Shown one piece after another: positions 8,006 through 54,114 of a DNA stretch of 64,000 nt (position 1 is the first letter of the stretch; each line of letters starts with the position of its first letter). Source of the DNA: Candidatus Nomurabacteria bacterium (GTDB lineage: Bacteria; Patescibacteriota; Minisyncoccia; Phycocordibacterales; UBA5272); the NCBI GenBank assembly GCA_028286645.1, contig JAQBRF010000004.1, positions 408,942 to 472,941 of the forward strand, written 5' to 3'. A program made the position numbers and the translations under genes. The notes under the pieces are model-generated. The model did not search any database. It saw only the letters and a program-made list of their open reading frames with translations, and had not been told where the DNA came from.

Positions 8006-8653
8006 CTAGTTAGTTAAATCGTAGATACAGGCTGTTGTTCCTGTTACGGCTGACGTACAAGCTGTAGTGCTCGTATCAATTCCACCTCCGAAATCTCCCG
8101 TGGCCCCAGTAGAAACAGGCTGTCCCGCTTCGTTAGCAAAATAATTCGTATGGCTTACGGTACATGCTGTTATACATGTATAAGGAATTGAACCTGTTGT
8201 TTGATCTACACAAGGCTTTGCAGTTCCGGTGAGCGCCGTAGTTACGCCTCCGCAGTCTGCGTCATCATTTAAACCCTGGTTTGATGACTCCAGCTTAACA
8301 CCTAAGTGATACCCGATTCGTCGATTGTTTGCACCTGGGTCTGTATAAACCGCATACATATACTTATCTCTAGCAGCAACAGTTGACGAAGCATTTGTAG
8401 GAAGAGCTTGTAGATATCTTGGGGCGAGACTAGAAAGATCAGGCGGGTAATCTCCGCCATTGTCTTCTGCATAAAGCTGTAAAGCGGTCGAAATAGCGCG
8501 AAGGTCTGCAACCTTCTTTGCATCTCTTCCTTTTCTTCTAGATTCTGTGATCGGTGCTGCTATAACCGTTGAAAGAAGGCCGATAATTGCGATCACCACC
8601 AGGAGTTCGATGAGGGTGAATCCTTTGAAACTTTTTTTTAATATTTTTGACAT
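8006..8653 (-). CDS. pilA: type IV major pilin (paralog 1)
   Basis: KGFTLIELLVVIAIIGLLS N-methylation motif. 215 aa. C-terminal Cys pair. Confidence 0.8.
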   Translation of the reverse strand: MSKILKKSFKGFTLIELLVVIAIIGLLSTVIAAPITESRRKGRDAKKVADLRAISTALQLYAEDNGGDYPPDLSSLAPRYLQALPTNASSTVAARDKYMYAVYTDPGANNRRIGYHLGVKLESSNQGLNDDADCGGVTTALTGTAKPCVDQTTGSIPYTCITACTVSHTNYFANEAGQPVSTGATGDFGGGIDTSTTACTSAVTGTTACIYDLTN

Positions 8654-8750: not shown

Positions 8751-9404
8751 CTAATTAGTTAAATCATATATACATGCCGCAGGAGTGCTTACAAGAACAG
8801 ATGTACAAGCCGTTGTGCCTGTATCTTGTCCTCCGCCAAAATCGCTATTTATACTTGAAGCAGGAGGATACCCGGCATCACCAACTACCCATGTTGGGTT
8901 ACTTGCAGTACAGGCGATTATACATGTATAAGGAATAGCTCCTGTAGTCTGGTTGACACAAGGTTTTGAACTTCCCCCCATAGCAAAATCGAAAGCCCCT
9001 CCACAGTCCGCATCATCGTTTAGCGCCTGATTCGCAGATTCTAATTTTACTCCTAAATGATAACCAATACGTCTATTATTTGCCCCAGGGTCAGCAAAGA
9101 CTGTATACATATATTTATCTCTAGCACTTGCTGAAGACCAAGCATTAGCAGGCAAAGATTGTAGATACCTAGGAACAAGAGATGAAATATCGGGCGGATA
9201 TTCTCCCGCATTATCATCGGCATACAATTGTATGGCTGTAGAGATTGAGCGTAGATCGGCGATTTTCTTTGCATCTCTTCCTTTTCTTCTAGACTCTGTA
9301 ATAGGAGCCGCTATAACAGTTGAAAGAAGTCCGATAATTGCGATCACCACCAGGAGTTCGATGAGGGTGAATCCTTTGAAACTTTTTTTGGAAATTTTAA
9401 ACAT
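8751..9404 (-). CDS. pilA: type IV major pilin (paralog 2)
   Basis: First ~125 aa nearly identical to 8006..8653. C-terminal ~90 aa divergent. 217 aa. Confidence 0.8.
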   Translation of the reverse strand: MFKISKKSFKGFTLIELLVVIAIIGLLSTVIAAPITESRRKGRDAKKIADLRSISTAIQLYADDNAGEYPPDISSLVPRYLQSLPANAWSSASARDKYMYTVFADPGANNRRIGYHLGVKLESANQALNDDADCGGAFDFAMGGSSKPCVNQTTGAIPYTCIIACTASNPTWVVGDAGYPPASSINSDFGGGQDTGTTACTSVLVSTPAACIYDLTN

Positions 9405-11718: not shown

Positions 11719-11937
11719 AGGGATAGATAGTAGACGTTAGACATTAGATGTTAGAAAATACAAATTCTATGCATGATGCTAGTATAAACCGGAAATGTGT
11801 AAAGACAATTGAATAAGTCACAGAAACGAGATGCTAAGGACTAGGCGTTAGGTTTTAGGTGTTAAAATACTAAAGTTACAAATGCAATATATAAATACTT
11901 AGAATTTTCCGTTTCAATAAATTTAATAACTAAACAA

Positions 11938-11975
11938 AAACCCCGTTTCATCACCGGGGGGTGACGAAACGGGTT
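11938..11975 (-). terminator. rho-independent terminator of the GC-rich gene
   Basis: 16-bp perfect stem AACCCGTTTCGTCACC/GGTGATGAAACGGGGTT followed by a T-run on the minus strand. Confidence 0.6.
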
Positions 11976-11980
11976 GTAAA

Positions 11981-12514
11981 TCACCCGGGAGCAGAACACT
12001 CCGGGAATTTCGAGAAGATCTCCTTCTGAAGACCTGTGAGGTAAACGACACGAAACCAGAAAGGAGGAAAAATGCCGTGGCAGTTATGTTTTATGGCCTC
12101 CACGTTAGCTGACCATTCGTCGACCCTGCGGCTCTTTCTCATAAGTTCGGCGACTTCTTCCTCGCTCATGCCGTAGCGCTCGTGTTCTTCCTTTGCGCAC
12201 GCCTCCTGGAGGAGCCGATACCCTTCACGGATGAAAAGCTCCATGTGATTATGGTAGACACTTCCAGGACGAACGTCCCGAGGTTGGCCTTCGAGGTATT
12301 GCGCAGTACTCGGTGACCCTTCGCAGCTCTTTTCCCCCTCAATGTCATACCACGGCAGAAGATGCCGGGCTGACGCAGTAAAGCAGGTGGCATTGCCGGC
12401 ATAGAGCCCGACGTACGCAGCGTTGTTGCGATCCGGGACCGGAGTACGGCATTTGTCGCAGAGCGGCTTTCCTTTGTCGTTGTATTCGGTAATTACTGTA
12501 AAGACAAGCATGAC
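11981..12514 (-). CDS. hypothetical protein on a GC-rich islet (likely horizontally acquired)
   Basis: ORF with GGAGA RBS before the internal Met (MLVFTVITEY...). GC clearly above flanks. Own strong terminator. No recognisable domain. Confidence 0.5.
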   Translation of the reverse strand, partial: VMLVFTVITEYNDKGKPLCDKCRTPVPDRNNAAYVGLYAGNATCFTASARHLLPWYDIEGEKSCEGSPSTAQYLEGQPRDVRPGSVYHNHMELFIREGYRLLQEACAKEEHERYGMSEEEVAELMRKSRRVDEWSANVEAIKHNCHGIFPPFWFRVVYLTGLQKEIFSKFPECSAPG

Positions 12515-12828
12515 GGTCTCCTTCAAATTTAGTGTGCGTTTCCGCACCCTAAAGAAGAAAATCACCATTTAAGACTGGGTGCGGTTCTGATTGATCCAAG
12601 AAAGTTGTTAGCTGTGCTTCATGATTCCCCCCACATAAAAATGAGCAGATAAATACAGTATAACATATTTGCCCGATATTGTCAATATTGAAAATCCCCT
12701 ATTTATTATGGCCATATTTCGGAATTGGTTAGAAAATAAGATGAGTACAATGCAAAGGAATTTTTTGAGACTAAAACGTACATACGTTGCGTGAGCAAAA
12801 GATTCTCTTAACGGAATAATCGCTTATA

Positions 12829-21304: not shown

Positions 21305-21369
21305 ATACTTAGTTTAACAGTTAAATAAGTAAGTTGTGACGATAACAATAGGAATCAATAAACCAGACA

Positions 21370-21400
21370 AATAAAAAAGTCCTCGCGCACGCGCGAGGGC
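21370..21400 (-). terminator. rho-independent terminator
   Basis: CCTCGCGCACGCGCGAGG hairpin followed by a T-run on the minus strand. Confidence 0.5.
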
Positions 21401-21423
21401 TTGATCATCATGTGAGTGCCAGC

Positions 21424-21633
21424 TCAGATGATGATCTCTTTTGGTTGAGGAACGACTTCGTACACCGGCACCGGCAAGTCCGGGTATGTCTGGTACATCG
21501 TCGGCGACGGAACTGGTACTTGTTGCACAGGTGCCGGTTGCTTGACCTGCGACATCATCATCGCAAACACGCTGATCGCTATGATCGCGAGCGAACACGT
21601 CTTCACCACGTCCGAAAAGTCAGTCCAATTCAT
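21424..21633 (-). CDS. small Pro-rich secreted protein (GC-rich islet)
   Basis: 69 aa, signal-peptide-like N-terminus, AAGGGAGAG RBS 6 nt upstream. Confidence 0.45.
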   Translation of the reverse strand: MNWTDFSDVVKTCSLAIIAISVFAMMMSQVKQPAPVQQVPVPSPTMYQTYPDLPVPVYEVVPQPKEIII

Positions 21634-21671
21634 GTTGCTCTCCCTTCTTGGTTATGAGTGATCGAGAGCAT

Positions 21672-22094
21672 CTAGCCAAGCCAGCCAGCGTAAGTGAGAA
21701 ACGTGGTCTCGCGTTTGTGGAAGTCGTATTGCAATGTTTCGGGGTGATCTCCTGGGCTCGTGATCATGATGATACCAATCGCATCCCGTTTAATCGCGGA
21801 GAACACATGCGTTTGTGTTGCAGGATCTCTGGTCACCACAAGCGTACTCCGATAAATCTCGCGCGTGCGTTTGTAGCTGCCCACATTTTCGATCTCGCTC
21901 ACGGTGACATTGTACGTCCCGGGAGCCTTGAAGTGCACTGTGTAGGCGGCGGCTTTTTCATCCCAGCCGTCTTTCGAAGGCTGCACGATGACCCGGCCTC
22001 CGAACATTGGAATATCCCTGGTCTTGTCTCCGTAGACTTGTGTGAAGTAAAAAGCCCCTACTGCCAGTATAAATAATGCAAAAAGCCATCTCAT
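21672..22094 (-). CDS. secreted hypothetical protein (GC-rich islet)
   Basis: 140 aa, signal peptide MRWLFALFILAVGAF, AAGGAAAGGGA RBS. Confidence 0.5.
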   Translation of the reverse strand: MRWLFALFILAVGAFYFTQVYGDKTRDIPMFGGRVIVQPSKDGWDEKAAAYTVHFKAPGTYNVTVSEIENVGSYKRTREIYRSTLVVTRDPATQTHVFSAIKRDAIGIIMITSPGDHPETLQYDFHKRETTFLTYAGWLG

Positions 22095-22197
22095 ATTCCC
22101 TTTCCTTTTCTTTTAAATTAATCAAAGGCGCAAGCGCCGACAGGTTGTATACAATCAAATATATTAGATCATGTTTGTCAATATAAGAAAATTACAA

Positions 22198-22635
22198 CTA
22201 AACACTTTTCTGAATAATCGAAAATATGTTTTTATTTATAAAATTCTCTGGTATTTCATTTGATTTAAACCATTTCCACTCACCGAATTTCTCCGGCTCC
22301 ATGAGCTTTGCTTCTTGATTTGTAGAACATACAAAAACTTCTACAATATCTCCCTCCTTTGCTCCATCTACCTTTCCAATATATTCTTCAATTTTAAGAT
22401 CTGTGATTCCGGTCTCTTCTTCTGTTTCTCTTTTTAAGCATTCTTCTACAGTTTCTCCTTCATCGCCCCTTCCTCCTGGAGTTGTCCAAAATGATCCTAT
22501 CCATTTGTCTGGTGTGTAGTTGCGCAATCCTAATAATATTTTCCCATCACGAATTATAAGCGCCGAAGTTGCTGTCTCGCGGGTTACTTGTGTTTTTAAA
22601 ATTTGGTCCATGTGAAAAAAGTATATCAGTTTCAT
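22198..22635 (-). CDS. NUDIX hydrolase
   Basis: Nudix box GGRGDEGETVEECLKRETEEETGI. AT-rich native composition. TAG stop. Confidence 0.8.
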   Translation of the reverse strand: MKLIYFFHMDQILKTQVTRETATSALIIRDGKILLGLRNYTPDKWIGSFWTTPGGRGDEGETVEECLKRETEEETGITDLKIEEYIGKVDGAKEGDIVEVFVCSTNQEAKLMEPEKFGEWKWFKSNEIPENFINKNIFSIIQKSV

Positions 22636-22682
22636 TTTACAAAAAGAAAAGCTCCGACCGAAGCCGGAGGTTGTCGTCTGTA

Positions 22683-23375
22683 CTAACGTGGGCGACGGGT
22701 GCGCGTACCGAGGAAGCTGGATGCGATGAGGACATCGACTATTCCGCGGTCAGAACCGCCGAGCGAACTTGCGAAGATCGACGCCATCAATGCATCCACA
22801 CCTCCGCTGCCAGAGGACTGTTTCGAACAGGCTACACCATAGGCGCAGATGAGCTCGACGATGAGGCGCATTTGAGGCCCCTCGAGTTTCACCCCTTCCA
22901 GCGCCAAACCGACAGCGAGCTGCATGTTCTGCATACGCACTTCCGGCTCCGGTGGGTACATGGCGCCCGCAAGCAGCGCCTCGAGTTGGGCGATTTTTTT
23001 GTTGTTGCGTTGTGCGCCGAGAGTCTTCCAGTCCGCCAACTGGAAGGGAGCATCGGAGGGCTGCGGTAAGCTTTGATACCACCCGAGCTCTTCGACACCC
23101 GCGGCGACCATCACGGTGCTGTCGGGCCGAATGTGGTCATGAGGACGGCCGTCTTGATCGATGAAGTAAGGCGCTTCCCACGTGTAGGGGCTGCACACAT
23201 CCTTCGCGAGGTAGATCCTCGAAGCTCTGAAGGAGAGATCGAAGGCTCCGTTTTCATGTTTCTTGAGGACCAACACTTTCGTGTCGGCGCATTCGTCGCA
23301 GCCGAAGCCCGTGATCACATCTCCCGGACGCAGGGTCGAGCTGCTCATGGCTTCGCCAACCTTTTTCGTGTGCAT
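22683..23375 (-). CDS. hypothetical protein (GC-rich islet)
   Basis: 230 aa, AAAGGAA RBS, downstream hairpin+T-run terminator at ~22646-22680. No recognisable domain. Confidence 0.5.
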   Translation of the reverse strand: MHTKKVGEAMSSSTLRPGDVITGFGCDECADTKVLVLKKHENGAFDLSFRASRIYLAKDVCSPYTWEAPYFIDQDGRPHDHIRPDSTVMVAAGVEELGWYQSLPQPSDAPFQLADWKTLGAQRNNKKIAQLEALLAGAMYPPEPEVRMQNMQLAVGLALEGVKLEGPQMRLIVELICAYGVACSKQSSGSGGVDALMASIFASSLGGSDRGIVDVLIASSFLGTRTRRPR

Positions 23376-23529
23376 CGCATTCCTTTCTATAGTGTTTGTG
23401 TTGAAATGAGCGCTTCTACTTATTTAAGTAAACAGTACTTCACCACCCTAACAATAAAATCATAATTTGTCAATGAGAGTATAAAAAGAAAAGCCCGTCT
23501 TGCGACGGGTGTGTTTGAAACGGGGGTGA

Positions 23530-23976
23530 TTACTCCCACCATTTCCAGAATGGGAAGAGAGCGCCGATACCGAAGCTCCCGAAACGAATGCCCCCGCCAC
23601 CGGCCAGGCAACCGAATCCGCCGAGGCAAGCGCCGACCGTTACGAAGAGAAATCCGATGTCGAGGTTCGGCCCGATGTAAAAGGCCACTCTCTTGTACCA
23701 GGCCTTACCTGCCGCTTTCTCGGCGGCCAGAGCAAGCTCCGGAAGTAAAAGGGGGAGAATGCGCATTGCACGGATTGCCTTCGGGATATTCCGGAAAGGA
23801 ACCTGAATCATTCGCCTTTCGTCGAGGATTCCTCCGACACTATCCGCGATGCTCGCCAGAACATCTCCACCTCCCCCGCCGCCATCACCCGTGGAAATAT
23901 CGTCTGAGATACCGCTGCCTTCTCCCAGGATTCCTCCAAGGTCGATCACGATCCCTAATGCCACGCCGAAATGCAT
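23530..23976 (-). CDS. glycine-rich protein with GxxxG-rich hydrophobic C-terminus
   Basis: GGGAGGG RBS before MHFGVALG. poly-Gly stretch. C-terminal FLFVTVGACLGGFGCLAGGGGIRFGSFGIGALFPFWKWWE. Confidence 0.45.
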   Translation of the reverse strand: MHFGVALGIVIDLGGILGEGSGISDDISTGDGGGGGGDVLASIADSVGGILDERRMIQVPFRNIPKAIRAMRILPLLLPELALAAEKAAGKAWYKRVAFYIGPNLDIGFLFVTVGACLGGFGCLAGGGGIRFGSFGIGALFPFWKWWE

Positions 23977-24066
23977 AATGTGCCCTCCCAAAATTCCAAC
24001 TGTTACAGAAGCAACCGAAGTTGACTAGTTATAAACTATAATACCATTAATGTTCTGTCAATTACA

Positions 24067-24113
24067 CCTAAACACTGCTTCTATATTATTCCATCTGGGT
24101 CTAGAACGAATAC
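24067..24113 (-). repeat. degenerate copy C of the VOC-gene 3' end (att-like direct repeat)
   Basis: ~45/48 identical to 25845..25893 with one 1-nt deletion. Similarity extends ~15 bp past the former stop codon. Confidence 0.6.
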
Positions 24114-24157
24114 ATCTAATAGTTTTCTCAAATACAAAAGAAAAACCGCACCTGCTT

Positions 24158-24616
24158 TCAGTGCGGACAAGGAACATCTGTGTTAATCTCCATATCGAAA
24201 TACTCATGGAGCATTTGCGGTTCTACTCTAAATATTTTGTATGGAATGATGGGCGTGGTAGCCACATAGAAAAGTCCATTCCGTACAGGTGCAAAATATT
24301 CGCGCGGAAGAACGTACACATAACCCGTGCGATAGCGCACATTCCTTCCTGTTACGATAACCTTGCGGTTGCGTAACCCCCAATGAAGGTACCCGTGCTT
24401 GCTCCGTATACGGAGTACTGCGTGAAGGATAGCTATCCCGGATGATGTTGTTGCATAGATTGCGTTTAAATTATTCTCCGGAATCCCCGTCGTGCAAATC
24501 GCTTTTCTCGGCTCCACTTTACTAAGTAGCCACGGCGAGCCATGAAATAAAAAATTCTCTCGGTCAATGCGTATCAAAGGATATACGTTCGATATTCTCT
24601 TTTGAATTGCTCTCAT
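24158..24616 (-). CDS. hypothetical protein (cassette A, GC-rich)
   Basis: GGAGAAG RBS before the second Met (MRAIQKRIS...). 152 aa. Confidence 0.45.
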   Translation of the reverse strand: MRAIQKRISNVYPLIRIDRENFLFHGSPWLLSKVEPRKAICTTGIPENNLNAIYATTSSGIAILHAVLRIRSKHGYLHWGLRNRKVIVTGRNVRYRTGYVYVLPREYFAPVRNGLFYVATTPIIPYKIFRVEPQMLHEYFDMEINTDVPCPH

Positions 24617-24679
24617 GATACTTCTCCGCATGTAGTGGTTTCTATCAAACTACAGCACAGATGATACTTAGTCAATCAT

Positions 24680-24728
24680 CCCTAAACACTGCTTCTATAT
24701 TATTTACATTTGGATCTAGGACGAATGC
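24680..24728 (-). repeat. copy B of the VOC-gene 3' end (att-like direct repeat)
   Basis: 47/49 identical to 25845..25893. Encodes AFVLDPNVNNIEAVFRDD*. Confidence 0.65.
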
Positions 24729-24796
24729 AGGAGTAACTTCAATTATAAAAAAAATAGACCACCGAGGTGGTCTATTACTCGGCGCGGAAGAGGTCC

Positions 24797-25237
24797 TTAC
24801 TCTTCGTATACGCGCAGAATCTTGATGAACGGATAGCGTTTGGCGCTGTACGCGTAACCCCGCATGATGTCTCTCATGCCGCGGTACTCTTCATCGTAAC
24901 CGTGGTTGTACGAAATGCGATTTGCCCACCAGTAATACCTGAATCCTTCGGTGCGGACAAACACTTCGTACTCTTCTGGCACAAACTGCACCAGTCTGCA
25001 GTTGAAGGCACGACTTGTCGTGGTTATGCACACTCGTAGCGGGGTGGTGGTGACTTTCGCCACCTTCACCCATGGAGCTGATAAATTCCAGCCCGGCGTG
25101 TCACGCTTCACCTCGCCCGTAAATGCATTTCGCATGATACCTACCTGAGTGGGCTCGCTATGATGCATGAACGGAAAGTAGATGAGCGCGCCGAGGAGAA
25201 GAAGGGCGCCGGCAACGAGGATGTGTAGATGCTTCAC
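24797..25237 (-). CDS. membrane-anchored hypothetical protein (cassette B, paralog 1)
   Basis: GTG start overlapping the upstream stop (GTGA). N-terminal TM. Shared motifs P..VCI......NC.LVQF and YAY.....YPF with 25234..25752. Confidence 0.5.
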   Translation of the reverse strand: MKHLHILVAGALLLLGALIYFPFMHHSEPTQVGIMRNAFTGEVKRDTPGWNLSAPWVKVAKVTTTPLRVCITTTSRAFNCRLVQFVPEEYEVFVRTEGFRYYWWANRISYNHGYDEEYRGMRDIMRGYAYSAKRYPFIKILRVYEE

Positions 25238-25752
25238 TTGGCATCCTCGTTCTTGAGTTCTCGCACGACGGAAAGGAATGGATATATCTTCCCCGTTCCT
25301 TCGTATGCGTAACTCTTGAGGATTTCGGAAAAGTCCGTTGTTCTTTCTTTTCCGCCCTTTCTACTACCTCCGGTTCCCGGCCCTTCGTAGTCCCGCCGGC
25401 CATGCCAGGAAAGGAAGAGATCGAGTCCCTTCGCATTGAACTGCACAAGCTTGCAGTTGAGCACACGCTGATTCGCATTGATGCACACCTGCATCGGCCG
25501 CAAGTCGACCGTATGATACTGCTCGACGATCGGCGTTCGTACGAAGTAGCCGGTCCTCTCGAGTGTCGTGATCTTCCCAGTGCGGGTATTGAACACATAG
25601 CCCTGTTGGTAGGTGTCGACGAACTGGACAAACCATATCCAGGTCACGCCGATGATCACGAGTGCAATGATGGTGAGTCCCGCCAGAAAATACCCCAACT
25701 TTAGCCAGAGCCTGCGCGAATTGAAGCCCTCTTTCATACTTTTCTCAGCCAT
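25234..25752 (-). CDS. membrane-anchored hypothetical protein (cassette B, paralog 2)
   Basis: AGAGGA RBS. 172 aa. N-terminal TM. Weak SPFH/band-7-like pattern (low confidence). Confidence 0.5.
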   Translation of the reverse strand: MAEKSMKEGFNSRRLWLKLGYFLAGLTIIALVIIGVTWIWFVQFVDTYQQGYVFNTRTGKITTLERTGYFVRTPIVEQYHTVDLRPMQVCINANQRVLNCKLVQFNAKGLDLFLSWHGRRDYEGPGTGGSRKGGKERTTDFSEILKSYAYEGTGKIYPFLSVVRELKNEDAK

Positions 25753-25833
25753 TATGAATGTCCTCTTGTGTCGTTAATCGGAACAGCCCACATGCACTGT
25801 CTAGAATTACACTATAATATCTTCCGATGTTCG

Positions 25834-26211
25834 TCAACAGTACCCCCTAAACACTGCTTCTATATTATTTCCATCTGGATCTAGGACGAATGCGGCGTAA
25901 TAGTTTGGTCCGTAGATTGGACGACCCCCTGGTGCTCCATTATCTTTTCCACCTACTTTTATTGCTTCTTTATAAAATGCGTTCACTTCTACATTTCCAT
26001 TAGCTTTATACGCTAAATGCGTCGGACCGCTTATCGGCTCATCATTTGTGATCCAAGTATCATTCTTCCCAACATTTGCGAATCCTAAAATCTGCACTCC
26101 CTAGTAATTAAAATCCATGGCGAGTGTGTATCCAAGTGGTAGAAGTGCTTGCTTATAAAATTCTCTAGCTTTGTTTATATCCGAAACTCGGATGGTGATG
26201 TAGTCGAGCAT
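25834..26211 (-). pseudogene. VOC/glyoxalase-family gene interrupted by an in-frame TAG. Its 3' end is the repeated att-like sequence.
   Basis: Single reading frame MLDYITIRVSDINKAREFYKQALLPLGYTLAMDFNY-TAG-GVQILGF...AAFVLDPDGNNIEAVFRGYC. VOC betaalphabetabetabeta signature. Confidence 0.55.
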
Positions 26212-26226: not shown

Positions 26227-26610
26227 TTATATGTTCTGCATTGTTTCCAGAGGAGACTCTTTAGTTTCTCCTTTTTCTGTATATTTCACTATACATGTAT
26301 TTAAAAAAGAATCATAATAAATACCCACCACATTATTCCATCTCTGCTGAAGAGAGGTAAGCAAGGAATTACATTTAAGGGTATTGTCGAATAATTGTTT
26401 GTCTTCTTCTTTCTTGGTCTGTTCTACCTTTGTCTCCGCTTCTATTAATTGTTGTTTTTCAATTGATTTCTGCTTATTTATTTGAGCGGCATAGAAAAAA
26501 CCTCCTAAAACAATACATCCAAAAATTATACTTATAGATAGAATTAAGCTATTTTTATTCATAATAATGAGTTTACCCTTTTTATGGAACCACCCTACTC
26601 CTTTATACAC
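26227..26610 (-). CDS. small membrane protein, co-oriented downstream of the P-loop NTPase
   Basis: 127 aa, one TM (SLILSISIIFGCIVLGGFFYA), coiled-coil, 35-nt gap to the NTPase gene. Confidence 0.45.
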   Translation of the reverse strand: MYKGVGWFHKKGKLIIMNKNSLILSISIIFGCIVLGGFFYAAQINKQKSIEKQQLIEAETKVEQTKKEEDKQLFDNTLKCNSLLTSLQQRWNNVVGIYYDSFLNTCIVKYTEKGETKESPLETMQNI

Positions 26611-26645
26611 TTTCTGTAAAGGTCAGACTTTAAAAAATAAGAAAA

Positions 26646-28139
26646 TTACTTCTTTCTCTTTTGCGCAAACCAATACAGACCTCTATGTAGGAAAAAGGAA
26701 TACTCCTTAAATTTTTTTACAAGAAGAGGATAATTACTCGATATATATTTAAAATGTATAACCTTATCATTTTTTTCTTTAAAACCGATCACACCATACC
26801 ACCATAATTCTTGGATAAATTCTTGAATTCTATTCCATCCTAATTTTGTTTTTACTCCTAAATATTGACCTAATTCCGTTTTAAGCTGTGAAACATTAAA
26901 ACCTTCTTTCCCACTTAATAAGTCTATAAGTTCATTAATATTATCCTGGCTAAAATTATATTTTAAGAGACGACTTATCAAAAATAGTTCATCTTTTAAT
27001 TCTTTTGTAAAATATTCCGAGTATTCTATTTCTGCAGAATCAATATTCTCAAAAGTTGCTGGATGTTTTGTGCTTAATCTATCTCTCATAGCATAACAAA
27101 ACTTGAGAAAATCTCTTGGTCGATTAAATGATATGGCGATCATATAAGCGTAAAAGTTGGTAGCATAACGATTTGTTTCAAAGTTTTCTAATGTTTTTGA
27201 AAAGATTGTATCTGGAAACTGGCTACGTAATGCTTTTATTGGATCACTCAAACTTTCTTGAAGTCTGTCTTGGTAGTATGGAATACGACGTATTAAAAGA
27301 CTTGCAAAACTTTTTTCATTCCATTCAAGTTTTAATGAGTCATTTATGAGTTTGTTGATATTTGATCCTTGCATAAACTCAAACAAATCATCTCTAATAA
27401 GACATATAAATCTCAATTTTTTACCTGAATCTCTAAAAATAGAATTATACAGGTCCAAACTAAGAAGTAATTCTCTAATCGTAACTAAATCTTCTTTAAG
27501 TTTTTTTTCATCTGCCTCATCTAAATAATCACTGATATCATCAATAAATATAAAAATAGTATCTTCTTTTGGCGTTGTTTCTTTTAACGAATTTATAAGA
27601 GAAGATGGCGCATTGGATATGACTGACCTAGTAGACTGCGACTCATCTTCTGTATTTGCTCCGCCTTCTGCCTTTGCGAACAAAGAATTTAACCATCCCT
27701 TTACAGAAAATCCTGTCTTATTTACTCTTCTTGTTTCTATAAACGTCTCATAATCTGAAGTATCTTGTAGACCGTTTTGTGTTAAAAAATCTAACCAGTA
27801 ACTTTCTGAACTCCCAATAAAAAGCTTTTCTTCAAGAAATTTTTGAATTGTTTTTATTATTATAAAAAAGAGTATTGAATTTAAATGATCGTTGAAACTC
27901 TCTCCTTCTGTAAGAGAAACACTCCTTATAGATATTCTATAGGATAATTTAATTCCATAATCTTGAGACTTTTGCTCTAAATACCTAGCTATGGCAGTTT
28001 TTCCTGTTCCTTTCCTTCCGCAAAGAATTGAATAGTTAGATGTAGTTATTGAATTAATAAACCCCGCATCATGAAAACACTCAAATAAATAATCGTCTTT
28101 TTCAGCTTCGGTCTGACGCTGGATTTTAAATTCTGACAT
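26646..28139 (-). CDS. predicted P-loop NTPase (KAP/STAND-like), unknown function
   Basis: 497 aa. Walker A ILCGRKGTGKTAI, Walker B IFIFIDDISDYLDE ~170 aa later, long helical C-terminal region. Confidence 0.6.
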   Translation of the reverse strand: MSEFKIQRQTEAEKDDYLFECFHDAGFINSITTSNYSILCGRKGTGKTAIARYLEQKSQDYGIKLSYRISIRSVSLTEGESFNDHLNSILFFIIIKTIQKFLEEKLFIGSSESYWLDFLTQNGLQDTSDYETFIETRRVNKTGFSVKGWLNSLFAKAEGGANTEDESQSTRSVISNAPSSLINSLKETTPKEDTIFIFIDDISDYLDEADEKKLKEDLVTIRELLLSLDLYNSIFRDSGKKLRFICLIRDDLFEFMQGSNINKLINDSLKLEWNEKSFASLLIRRIPYYQDRLQESLSDPIKALRSQFPDTIFSKTLENFETNRYATNFYAYMIAISFNRPRDFLKFCYAMRDRLSTKHPATFENIDSAEIEYSEYFTKELKDELFLISRLLKYNFSQDNINELIDLLSGKEGFNVSQLKTELGQYLGVKTKLGWNRIQEFIQELWWYGVIGFKEKNDKVIHFKYISSNYPLLVKKFKEYSFFLHRGLYWFAQKRKK

Positions 28140-28256: not shown

Positions 28257-28604
28257 TTACATCCCGCCCTTGCTCACTTCCATGATATCTATGAAAGATG
28301 TTGGAATTGCGAAATGAGGATTTTCCTTAAACATTTCAGTAACTTCTTCAGCAGATTCAGCTTGTACGATGCACATATAATTCATGTCATTCGTTACTGG
28401 CTTTGCTCCAGTTGCGTCCACTCGAGTATTCTTCCCAAGAGGAAGTCCTTCACCCACAAATGATGCTTTATGCTTTTCCGTCCACGCCATCATATCAGCT
28501 CCTAGCTTCTCCCCTTGTTCCTTCATTTTCTCCGGTGGAGTATTCTTCTTCCACTCTTCCATTGTCTCCACAGGCACACGATATATAATTACAAATTTTT
28601 TCAT
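28257..28604 (-). CDS. hypothetical protein
   Basis: 115-aa ORF divergent from the cassette array. No motif. Confidence 0.45.
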   Translation of the reverse strand: MKKFVIIYRVPVETMEEWKKNTPPEKMKEQGEKLGADMMAWTEKHKASFVGEGLPLGKNTRVDATGAKPVTNDMNYMCIVQAESAEEVTEMFKENPHFAIPTSFIDIMEVSKGGM

Positions 28605-28622
28605 ATGTATATTCTAGCACAT

Positions 28623-28651
28623 TGCCTTATTTTCTTTTATGTTGTAGATTC
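28623..28651 (+). promoter_or_regulatory. promoter of cassette 1 (TTGCCT-N17-TAGATT)
   Basis: Same -35/-10 architecture and spacing as the intercistronic modules R1-R4. Confidence 0.45.
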
Positions 28652-28681
28652 AAGGAGATAGATCACAGGGAGATTTGTGCC

Positions 28682-28915
28682 ATGAATATTCCGAAAGACA
28701 AGAACTACCCGCCAGACGCTGTGCAGTGCAACGAATGTGGTGGGTGGGGTGAAACAGAAAGAAACGAAGACTGCGAGACCTGTGGAGGAAAAGGATGGCT
28801 TCCGCATGGCCATCCGAAAGGCAGAAAGTGCTATCGCGAGGTATGCACCAACACCATCCCTCCCGCGCAAGTCGCCGTTTACTGCACAAATGAATGCGCC
28901 CACCTCGACGCATAA
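28682..28915 (+). CDS. small Cys-rich zinc-ribbon protein (cassette 1)
   Basis: GGGAGA RBS. 77 aa with CNECGG...CETCGG plus further Cys/His. Confidence 0.5.
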   Translation: MNIPKDKNYPPDAVQCNECGGWGETERNEDCETCGGKGWLPHGHPKGRKCYREVCTNTIPPAQVAVYCTNECAHLDA

Positions 28916-28931
28916 CGGCATCCCTGCAATA

Positions 28932-28998
28932 CCCCGGGCCTCGTGGCCTGGGATTTTTTATTTGCTTTTCAATTTTATCTATTGTAGGTTTAGGGGGA
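28932..28998 (+). promoter_or_regulatory. terminator-promoter-RBS module R1
   Basis: GC hairpin CCCGGGCC-TCGT-GGCCTGGG + T-run, then TTGCTT-N17-TAGGTT, then TAGGGGGAA. 67/67 identical to R3. Confidence 0.6.
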
Positions 28999-29035
28999 AA
29001 TGCACCGTACCTAACTCGCCTGAGGAGACATCACA

Positions 29036-29433
29036 TGACTGTACCGAAACAGGACGAAAAAGACGCCATATGCTTCCTCGCGTTTTACATCAGCAGCGAA
29101 GGACCCCCTGCGTTCTACGTATTGGGGCCGAATCTCCCCACCTCGGACTTCGGTCATGAGAGCCTTGAGAGGTTTGCCTCAAATGTAGCAACAGCGATCG
29201 GAGGTGCCGGTACTTGCCACATGCAGCCACCGTATGCCGAGTATCTCATCATCAAGGACGACCAGGTGAAAGTCTCCGGGGGAAGCGCGGGCCTCCGGAT
29301 CGCCGAAGATGTGGCGAAGAGCAAGAAGATCGAGGGGTACCTCAATTCTAACAACCGCGCCAAAGACGCGCTGCTCAACCTTTCCCCGCTCATTCGCTGG
29401 CGGACAGTGCAGCAAATCATTATCCCTCTGTAA
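29036..29433 (+). CDS. hypothetical protein (cassette 2)
   Basis: GAGGAG RBS 6 nt upstream. 132 aa. GC-rich. Confidence 0.5.
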
Positions 29434-29448
29434 CTGCGACCACGATCG

Positions 29449-29600
29449 ACCCGAGCCCTCACGGCTCGGGATTTTCTTTCCTATAGCCGAGCAAAGCACG
29501 CTATAGGATTGCACCCTATACCGAGCTCTGCTCTGGTGTAGGGTTTTGCTTAAATTTTTTAAATGGTGTAGTGTAATTTTGAACCAGACCTGATTTCCTA
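29449..29600 (+). promoter_or_regulatory. terminator-promoter module R2 (variant with two hairpins)
   Basis: CCGAGCC-CTCA-CGGCTCGG + T-run. Second hairpin ACCCTATACC/GGTGTAGGGT. TTGCTT-N17-TAGTGT. Confidence 0.5.
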
Positions 29601-29615
29601 CCAACTGGAGCCGAT

Positions 29616-46895: not shown

Positions 46896-46933
46896 TTAAA
46901 AATAAATCCGCCGATCTTGCGACCAGCGGCATT

Positions 46934-47470
46934 TCATCTCCTCCACGAAATCACAGCAAGATGTTCAGAGTTGTCGCCAGCATTAAGGACACTGGCTCCG
47001 AGTTTTTCATACCAAGCAGACAACTCCGGCTCGCACACCCCCCATAACACGGGGTGGACCTCAAGGACTTTTCGGACAGAACGCCGCACGATCTCCGCCC
47101 CCCAACCCTCACCCCTTTTCACATTACGCACATGAAGACATGTAATGTATGAAGCCCCTGTGGCTTCAAGAGTGGATTGCATGTATTTTAGATCTGGGTC
47201 GGTGAATCTTTCAGGAGATTGTTCGAAGTGAAGAACCCCACCGAAAAATTCTCTGTCCATTCCGGACGTAAGAAACTGATATGGCAGGATGGTGCCCGGA
47301 TCGCAGCCGATAGTGCGGTAAATCTCCCTTTCGAAATGCCGGCCATTTGTACAGAACGAGAGATGATTTAATGGCTTAAGCCAAGGTATTACAGGCCCAA
47401 ACTCATTCATAAGCTGAATAAACTGCAAGAGAAAGGCTCTCCCGCTGACATCTTTTTTCAAAAGAAGCAT
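46934..47470 (-). CDS. GNAT-like acetyltransferase, tentative (GC-rich islet)
   Basis: Elevated GC versus flanks. RGEGWGAEIV resembles GNAT motif A. Confidence 0.35.
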   Translation of the reverse strand: MLLLKKDVSGRAFLLQFIQLMNEFGPVIPWLKPLNHLSFCTNGRHFEREIYRTIGCDPGTILPYQFLTSGMDREFFGGVLHFEQSPERFTDPDLKYMQSTLEATGASYITCLHVRNVKRGEGWGAEIVRRSVRKVLEVHPVLWGVCEPELSAWYEKLGASVLNAGDNSEHLAVISWRR

Positions 47471-47585
47471 GTTAGCACCTCAAATCATTGTTTATCTTGT
47501 TCTAATATATTAAAAGCTGTCTGTCAATTTATAATAAGCGCAATGAATCTTTAGAATGAGATATCTTCCTTTTTTAAATTATTCT

Positions 47586-48846: not shown

Positions 48847-48891
48847 ATCTAAAATCTAACATCTAATGTCTAACGCCTACTATCTATCCCT
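48847..48891 (+). promoter_or_regulatory. tandem-heptad (TCTAAnn)x6 leader element abutting the valS start codon
   Basis: TCTAAAA TCTAACA TCTAATG TCTAACG CCTACTA TCTATCC CT-ATG. 35/36 identical to the element before pilT. Confidence 0.5.
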
Positions 48892-52485: not shown

Positions 52486-52660
52486 TGGTCACGAGTTACT
52501 AAATTGCGCTAACTGCACTTTGTGCAGATTGCTCATAAGTACTCTCGACCCGGCCTCCTGGTTTTAAAAAGTCAGGAAGAAAACTTTTTAAAACATCAGT
52601 GCGGCACACAAAACTAAAAATCTTTAGCAGAAAAGATTTTCTTTACGTTTTGTGCCCCCG
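52486..52660 (-). repeat. conserved tRNA-downstream structured element, copy 2
   Basis: Homolog of 34764..34931. Hairpin AACTGCAC-TTT-GTGCAGATT, identical 11-bp IR, terminator-like hairpin AAAATCTTT-AGCAGA-AAAGATTTT with the same loop. Confidence 0.55.
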
Positions 52661-53223: not shown

Positions 53224-53278
53224 TCTTTTCTGGGGGCTTAATTTGTGTTAGTATAAGAAAACTGTTTCTTTGCTGGGA

Positions 53279-53297: not shown

Positions 53298-53373
53298 AAT
53301 ATTTGACATTTGCTAGCAAATGCTGAACCAGAATAATAGTAGGAATACATCAAGTTTCTCAAATAAAATATAT

Positions 53374-53446: not shown

Positions 53447-53490
53447 CAAAATGAAAAACGCCGAAAGGCGCTTTTTCATTTTGTGCTGGG
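53447..53490 (+). terminator. rho-independent terminator of tRNA-Phe
   Basis: AAAAACGCC-GAAA-GGCGCTTTTT. Confidence 0.65.
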
Positions 53491-53776
53491 AGAGAACATG
53501 ACCTGCGTCATGTTCGTGCAGGTTCGAAGGGCGGAGCGTTATGAGGCAAACACGCCGAATCGCGAGCGGCAGGTTACGAATCTTATGAGTGGCCGGCGAA
53601 TAAGAATTTGTAACCGAGCCTAATCTGCAACTGCTTTGCGTATGTGCAGGCTCGTCTCCTTTTTCGATAACCCAGCTAAAAATCTTTTAGGAGAATAGTT
53701 ACTTTTTTATTGACTGTTGACATCTTATGTATTCTATGGCAGGATTCATAATGATAGTTAACCGGAGGATTCAGAT

Positions 53777-54073
53777 ATGATGATTTTTCGCGCTCAAATG
53801 TCGGCACTCGGGATCCCTACTGATATTTCTCACGGGGAAATCGAAATCAAAATAAAGGGCTCACGAGACAAAGATGAGACCCACGCGCTCGTGTCGTTGA
53901 ACCACCAAATCAGACCTCCTATGGTTCTCGGGGGCACGTACTGTGATGTATTTCTGTACTGTGTGTCTGAGCACGAGGATGAATTCGATTCCGGGAACAT
54001 TTTCGGAATGGTAACGGCCGGCGAAGGAGAGGCGCTTGCCTACAACCCGATCGGAACGACATTCGGAGAGTAG
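53777..54073 (+). CDS. hypothetical protein (GC-rich islet downstream of tRNA-Phe)
   Basis: GGAGGA RBS. 98 aa. Terminator AACAGGCAG-TGTGGG-CTGCCTGTT+T-run at 54078-54108. Confidence 0.4.
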   Translation: MMIFRAQMSALGIPTDISHGEIEIKIKGSRDKDETHALVSLNHQIRPPMVLGGTYCDVFLYCVSEHEDEFDSGNIFGMVTAGEGEALAYNPIGTTFGE

Positions 54074-54114
54074 CAAAACAGGCAGTGTGGGCTGCCTGTT
54101 TTTTCTTTTCTTTT

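What the first reader, a model, noticed from the sequence alone, without database searches (positions are those of the whole stretch)
21310..25830. Mosaic of short GC-rich islets interleaved with native AT-rich genes
- The GC-rich segments here each contain between one and three small genes with strong SD sequences (GGAGG/GGGAGGG) and their own hairpin terminators. The native genes are largely SD-less and leaderless.
- Islets in this region: 21310-22140 (two secreted-protein genes), 22640-24000, 24116-24680 and 24730-25800.
- Islets elsewhere in the window: 11981-12514, 28620-30600, 31860-32400, 33770-34160, 46930-47470 and 53480-54100.
- The pattern points to repeated acquisition of small foreign cassettes from higher-GC donors into a streamlined genome.
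- The insertion sites are often next to tRNAs or repeats.
- The donor's translation signals (strong SD) are retained.
Basis: seen in the sequence. Interest (0 to 1): 0.6.

Follow-up and report, generated by a model that had tools for sequence, protein, structure and literature searches.

The report
Self-contained gene cassettes stacked in a CPR genome
The GC-rich islets are real: they are small plug-in gene cassettes, each with its own promoter, ribosome-binding site and terminator, stacked between repeated boundary sequences in an ultra-small (Nomurabacteria, CPR) bacterial chromosome. This layout is otherwise known from phage genomes, and it shows how streamlined bacteria may swap accessory genes.

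Summary
About 9.2 kb (14%) of the window is 50% GC, against 37.5% for the rest. The 17 islet genes have GC3 of 0.61 against 0.32 for native genes. Fourteen of 17 carry an SD, against 4 of 53 native genes (p = 9e-9). Each unit ends in a hairpin terminator, and about half the native genes are leaderless.

The islets are accessory, compositionally foreign cassettes that vary between relatives. However, the only cassette with close relatives (A, a pair of SPFH-fold membrane proteins) occurs solely in other CPR bacteria and in huge-phage contigs. The other cassettes tested are orphans or have only remote relatives.

Three copies of the last ~50 nt of a glyoxalase gene, each followed by a promoter, separate cassettes A, B and C. 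A second array (28.6-30.7 kb) uses terminator-promoter repeats of up to 75 nt. A syntenic relative keeps the same boundaries with different cassettes. In about a dozen other CPR or huge-phage loci, cassette A is also bracketed by genome-specific repeats copied from the 3' end of a neighbouring gene or tRNA.

Best model: cassettes are gained and lost by recombination between the boundary repeats, as with the PeSL/moron shuffling of T4-type phages. No integrase and no attC site were found. Cassette A is old yet has not drifted towards the host's composition, and this is unexplained.

The parts
25834..26208 (-). Anchor gene of array 1: a glyoxalase/VOC-family gene at native GC (GC3 0.31), with an in-frame TAG after codon 36. 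Its last ~50 nt are the sequence repeated at the cassette boundaries.
   Evidence: Translation. The L001 orthologue hits Pfam Glyoxalase at 1e-10. Repeats.
25845..25893 (-). Boundary repeat copy 1, the intact 3' end of the glyoxalase gene. It is followed by the cassette A promoter TTGACG-N17-TAGTGT.
   Evidence: (D8: 96% identity to copy 2).
24729..25833 (-). Cassette A: promoter, about 70 nt of leader with an SD, A1 (25234-25752) and A2 (24797-25237), and a terminator at 24753-24776. A1 and A2 are paralogous membrane-anchored SPFH-fold proteins. GC is 0.53 and GC3 0.65-0.68.
24672..24728 (-). Boundary repeat copy 2, a relic glyoxalase 3' end (AFVLDPNVNNIEAVFRDD*). It is followed by the promoter TTGACT-N17-TAGTTT.
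24108..24671 (-). Cassette B: one gene (24158-24631; the annotated start is at residue 6) and a terminator at 24146-24166. GC is 0.45. It is bracketed by repeat copies 2 and 3.
   Evidence: In the exhaustive HMMER search its best non-self relatives are only 36-42% identical.
24058..24107 (-). Boundary repeat copy 3, a relic with a 1-nt deletion that shifts the frame. It is followed by the promoter TTGACA-N17-TAGTTT, which is homologous to the cassette A promoter.
   Evidence: (D7).
23494..24057 (-). Cassette C: SD GGGAGGG, a Gly-rich 148-aa orphan gene (23530-23976) and a terminator at 23494-23509. GC is 0.57.
   Evidence: (singleton cluster).
22652..23493 (-). Cassette D: promoter TTGACA-N17-TAGGGT, a 230-aa orphan gene (22683-23375) and a terminator at 22652-22669. 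GC is 0.59 and GC3 0.70.
   Evidence: (only itself among 5.8 billion proteins).
22198..22635 (-). NUDIX hydrolase gene of native composition (GC 0.36) lying between cassettes D and E. Its 3' end (AGTGTTTAG followed by TTTTCTTATATTGACA) resembles the boundary repeat and may be a fourth, degraded junction.
   Evidence: Pfam NUDIX 9e-19. Junction similarity.
21381..22197 (-). Cassette E: promoter, E1 (21672-22094, with an N-terminal signal or TM segment), E2 (21424-21633, TM) and a terminator at 21381-21398. GC is 0.52-0.53.
   Evidence: The cassette is absent from L001, which carries an unrelated GC-rich 147-aa gene at this position.
28622..30660 (+). Array 2: four co-oriented cassettes, F1 (28682-28915), F2 (29035-29433), F3 (29616-30062) and F4 (30179-30544). 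They are separated by composite terminator-promoter boundaries. Three are copies of a 75-nt repeat (28926-29000, 30080-30154, 30541-30615). A fourth (about 29450-29571) shares only the promoter part (D9, 29544-29571).
   Evidence: (D2, D9). L001 has the same boundary family with four different genes.
11930..12690 (-). Solitary cassette G, inserted between pilT and pilB: promoter TTGACA-N17-TATACT, a long leader with a mini-ORF, SD, a 176-aa orphan gene (11981-12511) and a terminator.
31860..32440 (-). Solitary cassette H, with two small genes (32163-32372 and 31889-32170). It lies about 130 nt from tRNA-Ser.
33690..34210 (+). Solitary cassette I: a 129-aa orphan gene (33771-34160) with its own promoter and terminator.
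46900..47540 (-). Solitary cassette J: a 178-aa orphan gene (46934-47470) with a TTGACA promoter, an SD and a terminator.
53450..54110 (+). Solitary cassette K, next to tRNA-Phe: about 220 nt of GC-rich leader region and a 98-aa orphan gene (53777-54073) with a promoter, an SD and a terminator.

Best explanation
The islets are moron-like accessory gene cassettes in the chromosome of a Candidatus Nomurabacteria (CPR/Patescibacteria) bacterium.

Shown:
- Each cassette is an autonomous transcription unit. It has a sigma-70-type promoter (TTGACA or TTGCTT, N17, TAGnnT), a leader with a Shine-Dalgarno site, one or two small ORFs and an intrinsic terminator. The surrounding genome mostly uses leaderless mRNAs.
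- In the flagged region the cassettes are stacked head-to-tail downstream of an anchor gene (glyoxalase).
- Every boundary of the stack is a composite module. It consists of the previous terminator, then a copy of the anchor's last ~50 nt (array 1) or simply a terminator-promoter repeat of up to 75 nt (array 2), then the next promoter.
- Array content differs between relatives while the boundary modules are kept.

Inferred mechanism:
- Homologous recombination between two boundary copies loops out a circle carrying one cassette plus one boundary.
- Such a circle, or a boundary-flanked fragment taken up through the competence-type pilus/ComF machinery encoded in the same window or delivered by phage, re-enters at any boundary copy by a Campbell-type single crossover.
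- That crossover regenerates the anchor's 3' end and leaves one more boundary copy.
- This is the mechanism demonstrated for PeSL mini-circles in T4-type phages.

Inferred source: the cassettes come from a pool circulating among CPR bacteria and huge phages, not from distant high-GC phyla. Continuous turnover from that pool, rather than one old import, would keep them GC-rich.
For: Cassette anatomy and its contrast with native genes.

Boundary repeats:
- Three copies of the glyoxalase 3' end, with 0 expected by chance (families D7 and D8).
- The repeat extends into the promoter.
- The 75-nt terminator-promoter repeat has two copies at 96% identity and a third at 61% (D2).
- All nine intercassette regions of array 2 in the window and in L001 share one architecture.
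- Perfectly matching runs of 24-68 nt are available as substrate for homologous recombination.

Hypervariability: L001 is syntenic at 77-85% nt identity. It shares glyoxalase, cassette A and the repeat, but has different genes after it and four different cassettes behind the same array-2 boundary.

Generality: in about 12 of 37 loci from other CPR genomes or huge-phage contigs, the A1A2 module is bracketed by genome-specific direct repeats of 28-144 nt, and several of these form arrays:
- L030: 8 copies, equal to the 3' end of a serine-recombinase gene.
- L008: 4 copies, equal to the 3' flank of Sua5.
- L022: the 3' end of a tRNA plus its terminator.
- L046: a perfect 51-nt promoter duplication.
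- L041: 4 copies.

No dedicated recombinase was seen:
- None among the window genes scanned or recognisable by eye.
- No recombinase among the 25 Pfam families listed (of 74 matched) for 63 genes flanking such arrays.

DNA uptake genes lie in the window: PilB/T/C/M, prepilin peptidase, pilins and a ComF-like protein with a PRTase domain and a double zinc ribbon.

Pool: A1 homologues occur only in CPR and on huge-phage contigs. The islet pools share one dinucleotide signature.

Precedent: PeSL terminator/promoter modules upstream of ORFans, with recombination between them and mini-circles (PMC2839356; PMC4122927).
Against: - No circle, empty site or alternative junction has been observed. The mechanism rests on architecture and comparison alone.
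- The solitary cassettes (G, H, I, J, K, and also D and E) have no significant flanking direct repeats, so another route must exist for first entry.
- Homologous recombination cannot explain how the same A1A2 module acquired different boundary sequences in different genomes. The first duplication of an anchor 3' end needs some other event.
- The two arrays share the 10-mer GTTTAGGGGG (p about 0.005). The 9-mer AGTGTTTAG recurs at two further islet junctions. Both hint at a site-specific core rather than plain homology.
- Cassette A is each genome's closest relative of the other, with the same junctions. That favours vertical descent, so turnover alone does not obviously explain its persistent GC3.
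- Only one close relative (L001) could be compared.
Confidence: 0.5

Rival explanations
1. This is a site-specific, integron-like system. A recombinase encoded elsewhere in the genome, of tyrosine or serine type or of a new type, recognises a short core in the boundary module. It inserts circular cassettes there and duplicates the landing pad (anchor 3' end plus promoter) at each insertion.
For: - The direct repeats are copies of a gene's 3' end, the classical footprint of integrase-mediated integration that preserves the target.
- The 10-mer GTTTAGGGGG is shared by the two otherwise unrelated boundary families of this genome (p about 0.005).
- AGTGTTTAG occurs 6 times against 0.54 expected, including the junctions at the NUDIX 3' end and beside tRNA-Ser.
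- In L030 the array abuts a large serine recombinase gene and repeats its 3' end.
- A perfect 51-nt duplication in L046 indicates a precise event.
Against: - No recombinase was recognised in the 64-kb window. About 40 proteins were scanned against Pfam and the rest were judged by eye.
- No recombinase appears among the 25 Pfam families listed for genes flanking 12 such arrays.
- The L030 recombinase gene is frameshifted.
- There is no attC-like RYYYAAC...GTTRRRY pair in any islet.
- Boundary sequences have nothing convincingly in common across genomes.
- The position of the shared 10-mer relative to the promoter differs between the two arrays: upstream of -35 in array 1, downstream of -10 in array 2.
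Confidence: 0.25
2. The islets result from independent horizontal transfers from unrelated higher-GC donors, for example host bacteria of the episymbiont. They entered by generic illegitimate recombination, and the donors' promoters and SDs were retained. The repeats are incidental.
For: - The islets have a distinct GC, GC3 and dinucleotide signature.
- SD-led translation differs from the native leaderless style.
- The solitary islets have no flanking repeats.
- Most cassette proteins have no traceable relatives, so unsampled donors cannot be excluded.
Against: - The only cassette with close homologues (A) is confined to CPR and huge-phage contigs.
- There are no hits in 72,556 plasmids, and a hit in only one huge phage among 50,697 phage records.
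- Promoters within an array are copies of one local module, not diverse donor promoters.
- The boundary repeats are far beyond chance and recur in many CPR genomes.
- The three islet pools share one signature, which argues against many unrelated donors.
Confidence: 0.12
3. The islets are resident, lineage-specific genes and are not mobile. Their high GC is maintained by selection or by GC-biased gene conversion at a recombination hotspot. The repeats arose by local duplication.
For: - Cassette A sits at the same junctions in the window and in L001. Its synonymous divergence is as saturated as in native neighbours, and GC3 is 0.63-0.68 in both. Neutral amelioration would need a starting GC3 of 0.97 to more than 1.
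- A1 is GC-richer than its background in 25 of 29 loci.
- A1A2 is under strong purifying selection.
Against: - All cassettes other than A differ between the two relatives.
- A1A2 is fully AT-rich in AT-rich genomes and phages, so high GC is not required for function.
- The module sits at unrelated genomic positions, bracketed by different repeats, in different lineages.
Confidence: 0.1
4. The mosaic is an assembly or binning artefact, produced by joining reads of different organisms.
For: The source is a metagenome-assembled genome.
Against: - An independent JGI assembly (L001) and a Logan assembly from another run (L002) contain the same glyoxalase, cassette A and repeat junctions.
- The junctions are precise and fall in native-type AT-rich sequence.
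- The same architecture recurs in dozens of unrelated assemblies.
Confidence: 0.02

Closest known systems
PeSL (promoter-early stem-loop) cassettes of the hyperplastic regions of T4-type phages (Arbiol et al. 2010, PMC2839356; Comeau et al. 2014, PMC4122927)
   Same: - Both have short composite terminator/promoter modules in intergenic regions, running from the upstream stop codon to the SD and start codon of the next gene.
- The modules are repeated immediately upstream of small ORFans.
- They are concentrated in regions that differ between close relatives.
- In phages, recombination between neighbouring modules was shown to yield indels and mini-circles carrying an ORF plus one module.
- Array 2 fits this description closely. 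The same A1A2 module is flanked by duplicated promoter regions on huge-phage contigs.
   Different: - The host here is a cellular CPR chromosome, not a T4-type phage.
- In array 1 and in several other CPR loci, the boundary modules incorporate a copy of the 3' end of an adjacent anchor gene or tRNA.
- The cassettes are compositionally distinct (GC-rich, SD-led) from a leaderless AT-rich host.
- No mini-circles have been observed here.
Phage morons (autonomous promoter-gene-terminator units inserted between phage genes; Juhala/Hendrix et al. 2000, from my own knowledge)
   Same: - Each unit is one or two genes with its own sigma-70 promoter and factor-independent terminator.
- The units sit between genes that are adjacent in relatives.
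- Their nucleotide composition differs from that of the neighbours.
   Different: - The cassettes are not in a phage or prophage, and no phage genes lie nearby.
- Many are stacked in arrays with repeated boundaries.
Integron cassette arrays and CALINs
   Same: - Both form co-oriented arrays of 0.5-1.1 kb cassettes.
- The cassettes mostly encode orphans or small membrane and secreted proteins.
- Boundaries are repeated, and content varies between close relatives.
   Different: - There is no IntI next to the arrays and no attC-type sites.
- Every cassette here has its own promoter and terminator, whereas integron cassettes are mostly promoterless.
- The boundaries here are copies of an anchor gene's 3' end or of terminator-promoter modules.
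Tandem genomic islands at the 3' ends of tRNA or protein genes (integrase-mediated integrative elements; tycheposons of Prochlorococcus, from my own knowledge)
   Same: - Direct repeats that are copies of the target gene's 3' end flank each inserted unit, and the target's 3' end is regenerated.
- Successive units accrete in tandem.
- One CPR locus uses a tRNA as anchor.
   Different: - The units here are 0.6-1.1 kb and carry no integrase or any other mobility gene.
- The anchors differ from genome to genome: glyoxalase, Sua5 flank, a recombinase gene, a tRNA.

Membership tests
PeSL-type regulatory cassette shuffling | Composite intergenic module with a sigma-70-like promoter plus a stem-loop terminator, ending in the SD and start codon of the next gene | tested here: met
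   All intercassette regions of array 2 have this form: hairpin, T-run, TTGCTT-N17-TTGTAGGTT, GGAG, ATG. Array 1 has it plus a gene-end fragment.
PeSL-type regulatory cassette shuffling | Modules repeated and placed immediately upstream of ORFans in regions that vary between close relatives | tested here: met
   Orphan or near-orphan content. The comparison of the window with L001 shows different genes behind the same modules.
PeSL-type regulatory cassette shuffling | Resides in a T4-type phage genome | tested here: not met
   The chromosome carries gatCA, ligA, secA, lepA, RNase P, tRNAs and type IV pilus genes of a Nomurabacteria MAG.
PeSL-type regulatory cassette shuffling | Recombination between modules produces mini-circles and indels | not testable with these tools
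   This needs reads or PCR across outward-facing junctions.
Phage moron | Gene flanked by its own promoter and a factor-independent terminator | tested here: met
Phage moron | Nucleotide composition differs from the neighbours | tested here: met
Phage moron | Inserted between genes that are adjacent in related genomes | tested here: inconclusive
   This holds for the 20-31 kb hotspot against L001. It was not testable for G-K because no relatives covering those sites were retrieved.
Phage moron | Located in a phage or prophage | tested here: not met
   There are no PHROG hits and no phage genes around.
Integron | IntI-type tyrosine recombinase with attI and Pc adjacent to the array | tested here: not met
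   None of the proteins scanned in and around the arrays hits a recombinase family. The arrays are flanked by glyoxalase/ATPase and YCII/NTP-transferase genes.
Integron | attC sites (R''-L''...L'-R', GTTRRRY core) at cassette ends | tested here: not met
   A regex for RYYYAAC-N35-130-GTTRRRY finds none in any islet. No covariance-model test was available.
Integron | Mostly promoterless cassettes expressed from Pc | tested here: not met
   Each cassette has its own promoter and terminator.
Gene-3'-end-targeting integrative element (tRNA/protein-gene islands, tycheposons) | Direct repeats that copy the target's 3' end flank the element | tested here: met
   This holds for cassettes A and B, and in L001, L030 and L022. 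It does not hold for the solitary islets.
Gene-3'-end-targeting integrative element (tRNA/protein-gene islands, tycheposons) | The element encodes its own integrase | tested here: not met
   The cassettes contain only 1-2 small ORFs without Pfam, PHROG or PADLOC matches.
Diversity-generating retroelement | Template and variable repeats differing at adenines, plus a reverse transcriptase | tested here: not met
   The repeat copies differ by G>A, G>T and an indel. No reverse transcriptase was recognised in the window.

The most novel reading that the evidence does not exclude
CPR/Patescibacteria possess a general cassette-array system that has not been described and that works like an integron without IntI or attC. 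A landing pad, made of the 3' end of an arbitrary anchor gene or tRNA plus a promoter, is duplicated at every insertion. A dedicated but unidentified enzyme may do this, possibly by a repeat-duplicating integration like CRISPR adaptation. The cassettes (leader, SD, ORF, terminator) are exchanged between CPR bacteria and their huge phages. Constant turnover or biased gene conversion at these hotspots keeps the cassettes GC-rich for long periods in AT-rich genomes.
Probability: 0.2. Interest if true: 0.85.

Novelty: new variant of a known kind. Interest (0 to 1): 0.6.

Why it matters
CPR bacteria have tiny, streamlined genomes and depend on other cells. How they acquire and test new genes is poorly understood. 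Published work reports islands and gene transfers among Patescibacteria in general terms (PMC12455944), but my searches found no described cassette architecture.

If arrays of plug-and-play expression units bounded by recombinogenic terminator-promoter or gene-end repeats are common in CPR, they would be a cellular counterpart of the phage hyperplastic regions. Roughly a dozen loci here suggest this. Such arrays would give a concrete route for gene flow between CPR bacteria and huge phages, and a store of orphan membrane and secreted proteins likely to matter for the episymbiotic lifestyle.

The failure of cassette A to ameliorate over a divergence that saturates synonymous sites is also a clean test case. 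It can separate turnover, selection and GC-biased conversion as causes of within-genome compositional heterogeneity.

Tried and rejected
Searches that returned nothing usable:
- Exact look-ups of window proteins to recover the rest of the source contig failed: NUDIX, P0001 and E1.
- A metagenome scan with the boundary pattern AATAATATAGAAGCNGTGTTT found nothing.
- The second metagenome scan, with the YCII protein, returned only unrelated GC-rich organisms.
- A concatenated 1,735-aa query of 14 cassette proteins hit the candidate cap and returned nothing, not even the proteins themselves.

Alternative identities tested and rejected:
- Integron: no attC-like core pairs and no IntI.
- DGR: the differences between repeat copies are not adenine-specific, and no reverse transcriptase was recognised.
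- Xer/dif module: by eye the boundary lacks the palindromic arms of a dif site. This is inference only.
- Prophage or defence island: no PHROG or PADLOC hits for cassette proteins.
- Plasmid origin: no tblastn hit for any of the 17 proteins.

Other negative results:
- Flanking direct repeats for the solitary islets G, H, I, J, K, D and E: none above chance.
- A recombinase recurring next to arrays in 12 other loci: none among the 25 Pfam families listed, of 74 matched. Weak single hits could be hidden in the unlisted families.
- Homology between window cassette E and the L001 cassette at the same position: none.
- Paralogy among cassette proteins: only A1 with A2.

Full report
**Source and background.** Two islet proteins are identical to hypothetical proteins JWN37_861 and JWN37_865 of a metagenome-assembled Candidatus Nomurabacteria bacterium (CPR/Patescibacteria) on a 514-kb contig. 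The window carries ordinary chromosomal genes: gatCA, ligA, secA, lepA, typA and murJ (recognised by eye), four tRNAs and RNase P RNA. It also carries a complete type IV pilus set, with PilB/T/C/M, prepilin peptidase and pilins, and a ComF-like protein. Native genes are AT-rich. About half have a -10-like TAnnnT 7-10 nt before the start codon and no SD, so their mRNAs are leaderless.

**Checking the observation.** The compositional mosaic is real and lies at the stated coordinates.
- The spread of 200-bp GC is twice the binomial expectation, and every listed interval is recovered as a segment of at least 47% GC.
- The islets as delimited here sum to 9.2 kb (14.4%) at 50.1% GC, against 37.5% for the rest.
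- The 17 islet genes have GC3 0.61 against 0.32 for 53 native genes. An SD is present in 14 of 17 against 4 of 53 (Fisher p = 9e-9). A leaderless-type -10 is present in 0 of 17 against 27 of 53.
- Each unit ends in a strong hairpin followed by a T-run: 21 terminator-like sites against 9.3 +/- 3.1 in shuffles for 20.5-31 kb.
- GC3 >= GC1 > GC2 holds in nearly all islet ORFs, which supports the reading frames. Seven of ten proteins checked are identical to database proteins, five of them to proteins annotated in the NCBI record.
- The dinucleotide signature separates the islets from native genes (delta* 121-145 against 55 +/- 18 for native samples). The three islet pools resemble one another (54-95).

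Read on the minus strand, the flagged region begins with a glyoxalase/VOC gene (25834-26208, native GC, with an in-frame TAG).
- Its last ~50 nt (...FVLDPDGNNIEAVFRGYC*) occur three times: at the gene end (25845-25893), after cassette A (24672-24728) and after cassette B (24058-24107, with a 1-nt deletion). The core 21-mer has 3 exact copies against 0 expected.
- Each copy is followed directly by a promoter of the form TTGAC(A/G/T)-N17-TAG(T/G)(T/G)T. The similarity between copies extends into that promoter (D7, 72).
- The order is therefore: anchor gene, repeat, cassette A, repeat, cassette B, repeat, cassette C, cassette D, NUDIX (native composition), cassette E, native secreted-protein gene.
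- The NUDIX 3' end (AGTGTTTAG followed by TTTTCTTATATTGACA) resembles the same junction as it appears in the relative L001. It may be a degraded fourth copy.

The second array (28.6-30.7 kb, plus strand) holds four cassettes separated by composite modules. Each module has a terminator hairpin, a T-run, TTGCTT-N17-TTGTAGGTT and GGGGGAA. Two 75-nt copies are 96% identical although they follow unrelated genes.

**Comparison with a relative.** A homologue of A1 at 74% identity led to L001, a 15-kb JGI contig syntenic with window 17.8-30.6 kb at 77-85% nt identity.
- L001 has the glyoxalase gene, cassette A (53% GC in a ~35% GC background) and the second copy of the glyoxalase 3' end at the same junctions.
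- Everything distal differs. L001 has a proteasome/HslV-like gene, two small genes and an unrelated GC-rich 147-aa gene, where the window has B, C, D, NUDIX and E.
- Behind the YCII gene, L001 carries four cassettes unrelated to F1-F4. They are preceded by the same promoter-terminator module family.
- The AT-rich ATPase block at 26.2-28.1 kb is replaced in L001 by DUF2130 plus a helicase.
- The whole 20-31 kb stretch is thus a hypervariable hotspot with conserved boundary modules.

**Where the cassettes come from.** None of the 20 islet ORFs scanned has a significant Pfam match; A1 has only a weak sub-threshold SPFH/Band 7 hit. Of the 10 cassette proteins scanned against each of PHROGs and PADLOC, none matched.
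- D is an orphan among 5.8 billion proteins.
- B has only relatives of 36-42% identity in an exhaustive HMMER search.
- Seven others are singletons at 90% identity.
- Cassette A is the exception. A1 and A2 are paralogues and always occur as a pair.
- A1 has more than 356 homologues. All named ones are from Patescibacteria, and it is found in 27 species-representative genomes, all credited to CPR lineages or to evidently mislabelled MAGs.
- Homologous copies of the pair also occur on a 636-kb uncultured phage (LR756504.1) and on seven IMG/VR contigs of 162-500 kb. There are no plasmid hits.
- The visible gene pool is CPR plus huge phages, not distant high-GC phyla.

**The architecture is general.** In about 12 of 37 loci carrying A1A2, the module is bracketed by direct repeats of 28-144 nt whose sequence is specific to each genome.
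- In L030 eight copies bound a 8-kb array. The repeat is the reverse complement of the last ~35 nt of an adjacent (frameshifted) large serine recombinase gene, followed by a TTGACA promoter.
- In L008 four copies of a ~110-nt module match the 3' flank of Sua5.
- In L022 the repeat is the end of a tRNA plus its terminator.
- On the viral contigs L046 and L041 the repeats are AT-rich promoter regions, one of them a perfect 51-nt duplication.
- A1A2 is GC-richer than its surroundings in 25 of 29 loci, by up to 0.15. It is fully AT-rich in AT-rich genomes and phages, so high GC is not a functional requirement.
- Its SD, and a TTGACA-N17-TAGTTT-type promoter, accompany it in several genomes.

**Mechanism.** The closest described system is the PeSL of T4-type phages. 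These are composite sigma-70 promoter/stem-loop terminator modules that run from the upstream stop codon to the downstream SD and are repeated upstream of ORFans in hyperplastic regions. Recombination between them produces indels and encapsidated mini-circles (PMC2839356; PMC4122927). The individual units also fit the definition of phage morons.

I therefore favour repeat-mediated shuffling. Recombination between two boundary copies releases a circle with one cassette and one boundary. A single crossover at any boundary copy re-inserts it and leaves the observed pattern of anchor, repeat, cassette, repeat. Perfect matches of 24-68 nt exist between copies. DNA-uptake genes are present. No recombinase was recognised in the window or among the listed Pfam families for flanking genes at other arrays. 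These steps are inferred; no circle or empty site has been observed.

A site-specific enzyme acting in trans remains a serious rival. The two boundary families of this genome share the 10-mer GTTTAGGGGG (p about 0.005). AGTGTTTAG is six-fold or more over-represented and marks two further islet junctions. Homologous recombination alone also cannot create the first duplication of an anchor 3' end. The solitary cassettes G-K show no flanking repeats, so their entry route is unknown.

**An unresolved puzzle.** Between the window and L001, cassette A is as diverged at synonymous sites (dS 0.85 for A2 and 1.74 for A1) as the native neighbours (0.73 to saturated). Yet its GC3 is 0.63-0.68 in both genomes, against 0.29-0.40 for the neighbours. 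A two-state amelioration model towards GC3 0.32 would need a starting GC3 of 0.97 for A2 and 1.56 for A1, which is impossible. Either the cassette is repeatedly replaced from a GC-rich pool through its boundary repeats, or selection or GC-biased conversion holds its composition. No donor closer than 67% identity is in the databases. A simple recent import does not explain it.

**Verdict.** The cassettes are acquired and variable, but they come from a CPR/phage pool and sit in a repeat-bounded architecture. This is a new variant of a known kind: PeSL/moron-like cassette arrays in a cellular CPR chromosome, with anchor-gene 3'-end duplication, no integrase and no attC.

**Limits.**
- Only one close relative was available.
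- One homology search was wasted.
- There is no read-level evidence.

Noticed in passing
window 34760-34885 (-) and 52487-52610 (-): A ~125-nt element, about 88% identical between its two copies, lies about 45 nt downstream of tRNA-Glu and of tRNA-Arg on the same strand. The predicted two-domain fold has 41 pairs, 4 of them with compensatory changes between the two copies. No Rfam family matched at E <= 1 in the tRNA-Glu copy, the only one searched. It is a candidate structured RNA co-transcribed with tRNAs.
   Followed up: partly
window 53271-53290 and 53373-53392; 53430-53490: A perfect 20-nt copy of the 5' end of tRNA-Phe lies 102 nt upstream of the real gene. The tRNA's 3' end forms a 26-bp perfect hairpin with the sequence just downstream, next to cassette K (D17, 43).
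   Followed up: no
window 11719-11758 (-) and 48852-48891 (+): The ~40 nt directly before the start codons of pilT and of an aminoacyl-tRNA synthetase gene are almost identical: ATCTAACATCTAATGTCTAACG(T/C)CTACTATCTATCCCT, with TCTAAC-like sub-repeats. Two unrelated native genes thus share one leaderless promoter or operator.
   Followed up: partly
window 25834-26208 (-): The glyoxalase anchor gene has an in-frame TAG after codon 36 (...LAMDFNY*GVQILGF...). The L001 orthologue is intact (Y-E-G at that position). The gene is a pseudogene, or the base call is wrong.
   Followed up: partly
window 26227-28139 (-): This is the most AT-rich block of the window (28-31% GC). It holds a 497-aa P-loop ATPase (weak AAA/ATPase_2 hits and a weak PADLOC mad8 hit) and a 127-aa membrane protein. 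In L001 it is replaced by DUF2130 plus a 1,171-aa helicase. It looks like a variable defence-like islet of the opposite compositional sign.
   Followed up: partly
L033 6001-7058 (LR756504.1, 636-kb uncultured phage); L040-L046 (IMG/VR contigs of 162-500 kb): The SPFH-like A1A2 gene pair of cassette A also occurs on huge-phage contigs. There it is mostly at the phage's own low GC, and in L046 and L041 it is bracketed by duplicated promoter regions.
   Followed up: partly
L030 2700-12163: An AT-rich CPR genome carries an array of eight or more cassettes. Their boundary repeat is the reverse complement of the 3' end of an adjacent, frameshifted large serine recombinase gene, followed by a conserved TTGACA promoter and leader.
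   Followed up: partly
window 12630-12655 (-), 29001-29015 (+); L001 ~2010-2035 (-): Several cassette leaders start with GGGGGAA followed by ATG. In G (MKHS*) and F2 (MHRT*) this opens a mini-ORF. In one L001 cassette the upstream ATG has no stop and reads in frame into the main ORF. The motif GGGGAATGCAC is shared between the window and L001, so these may be leader peptides or regulatory elements.
   Followed up: no
window 28257-28604 (-): The YCII-like gene that anchors array 2 has GC3 0.40. Its nearest metagenomic relatives (65-71% aa identity) sit in 55-59% GC contigs of unrelated organisms, which suggests it is itself an older transfer.
   Followed up: no
window 8006-8653 and 8751-9404 (-): Two tandem pilin genes share identical N-termini and 74-78% identical DNA segments, so this is a recent duplication. 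Their GC (0.42-0.45) is above the native mean without islet features (D1/D4, 12).
   Followed up: no
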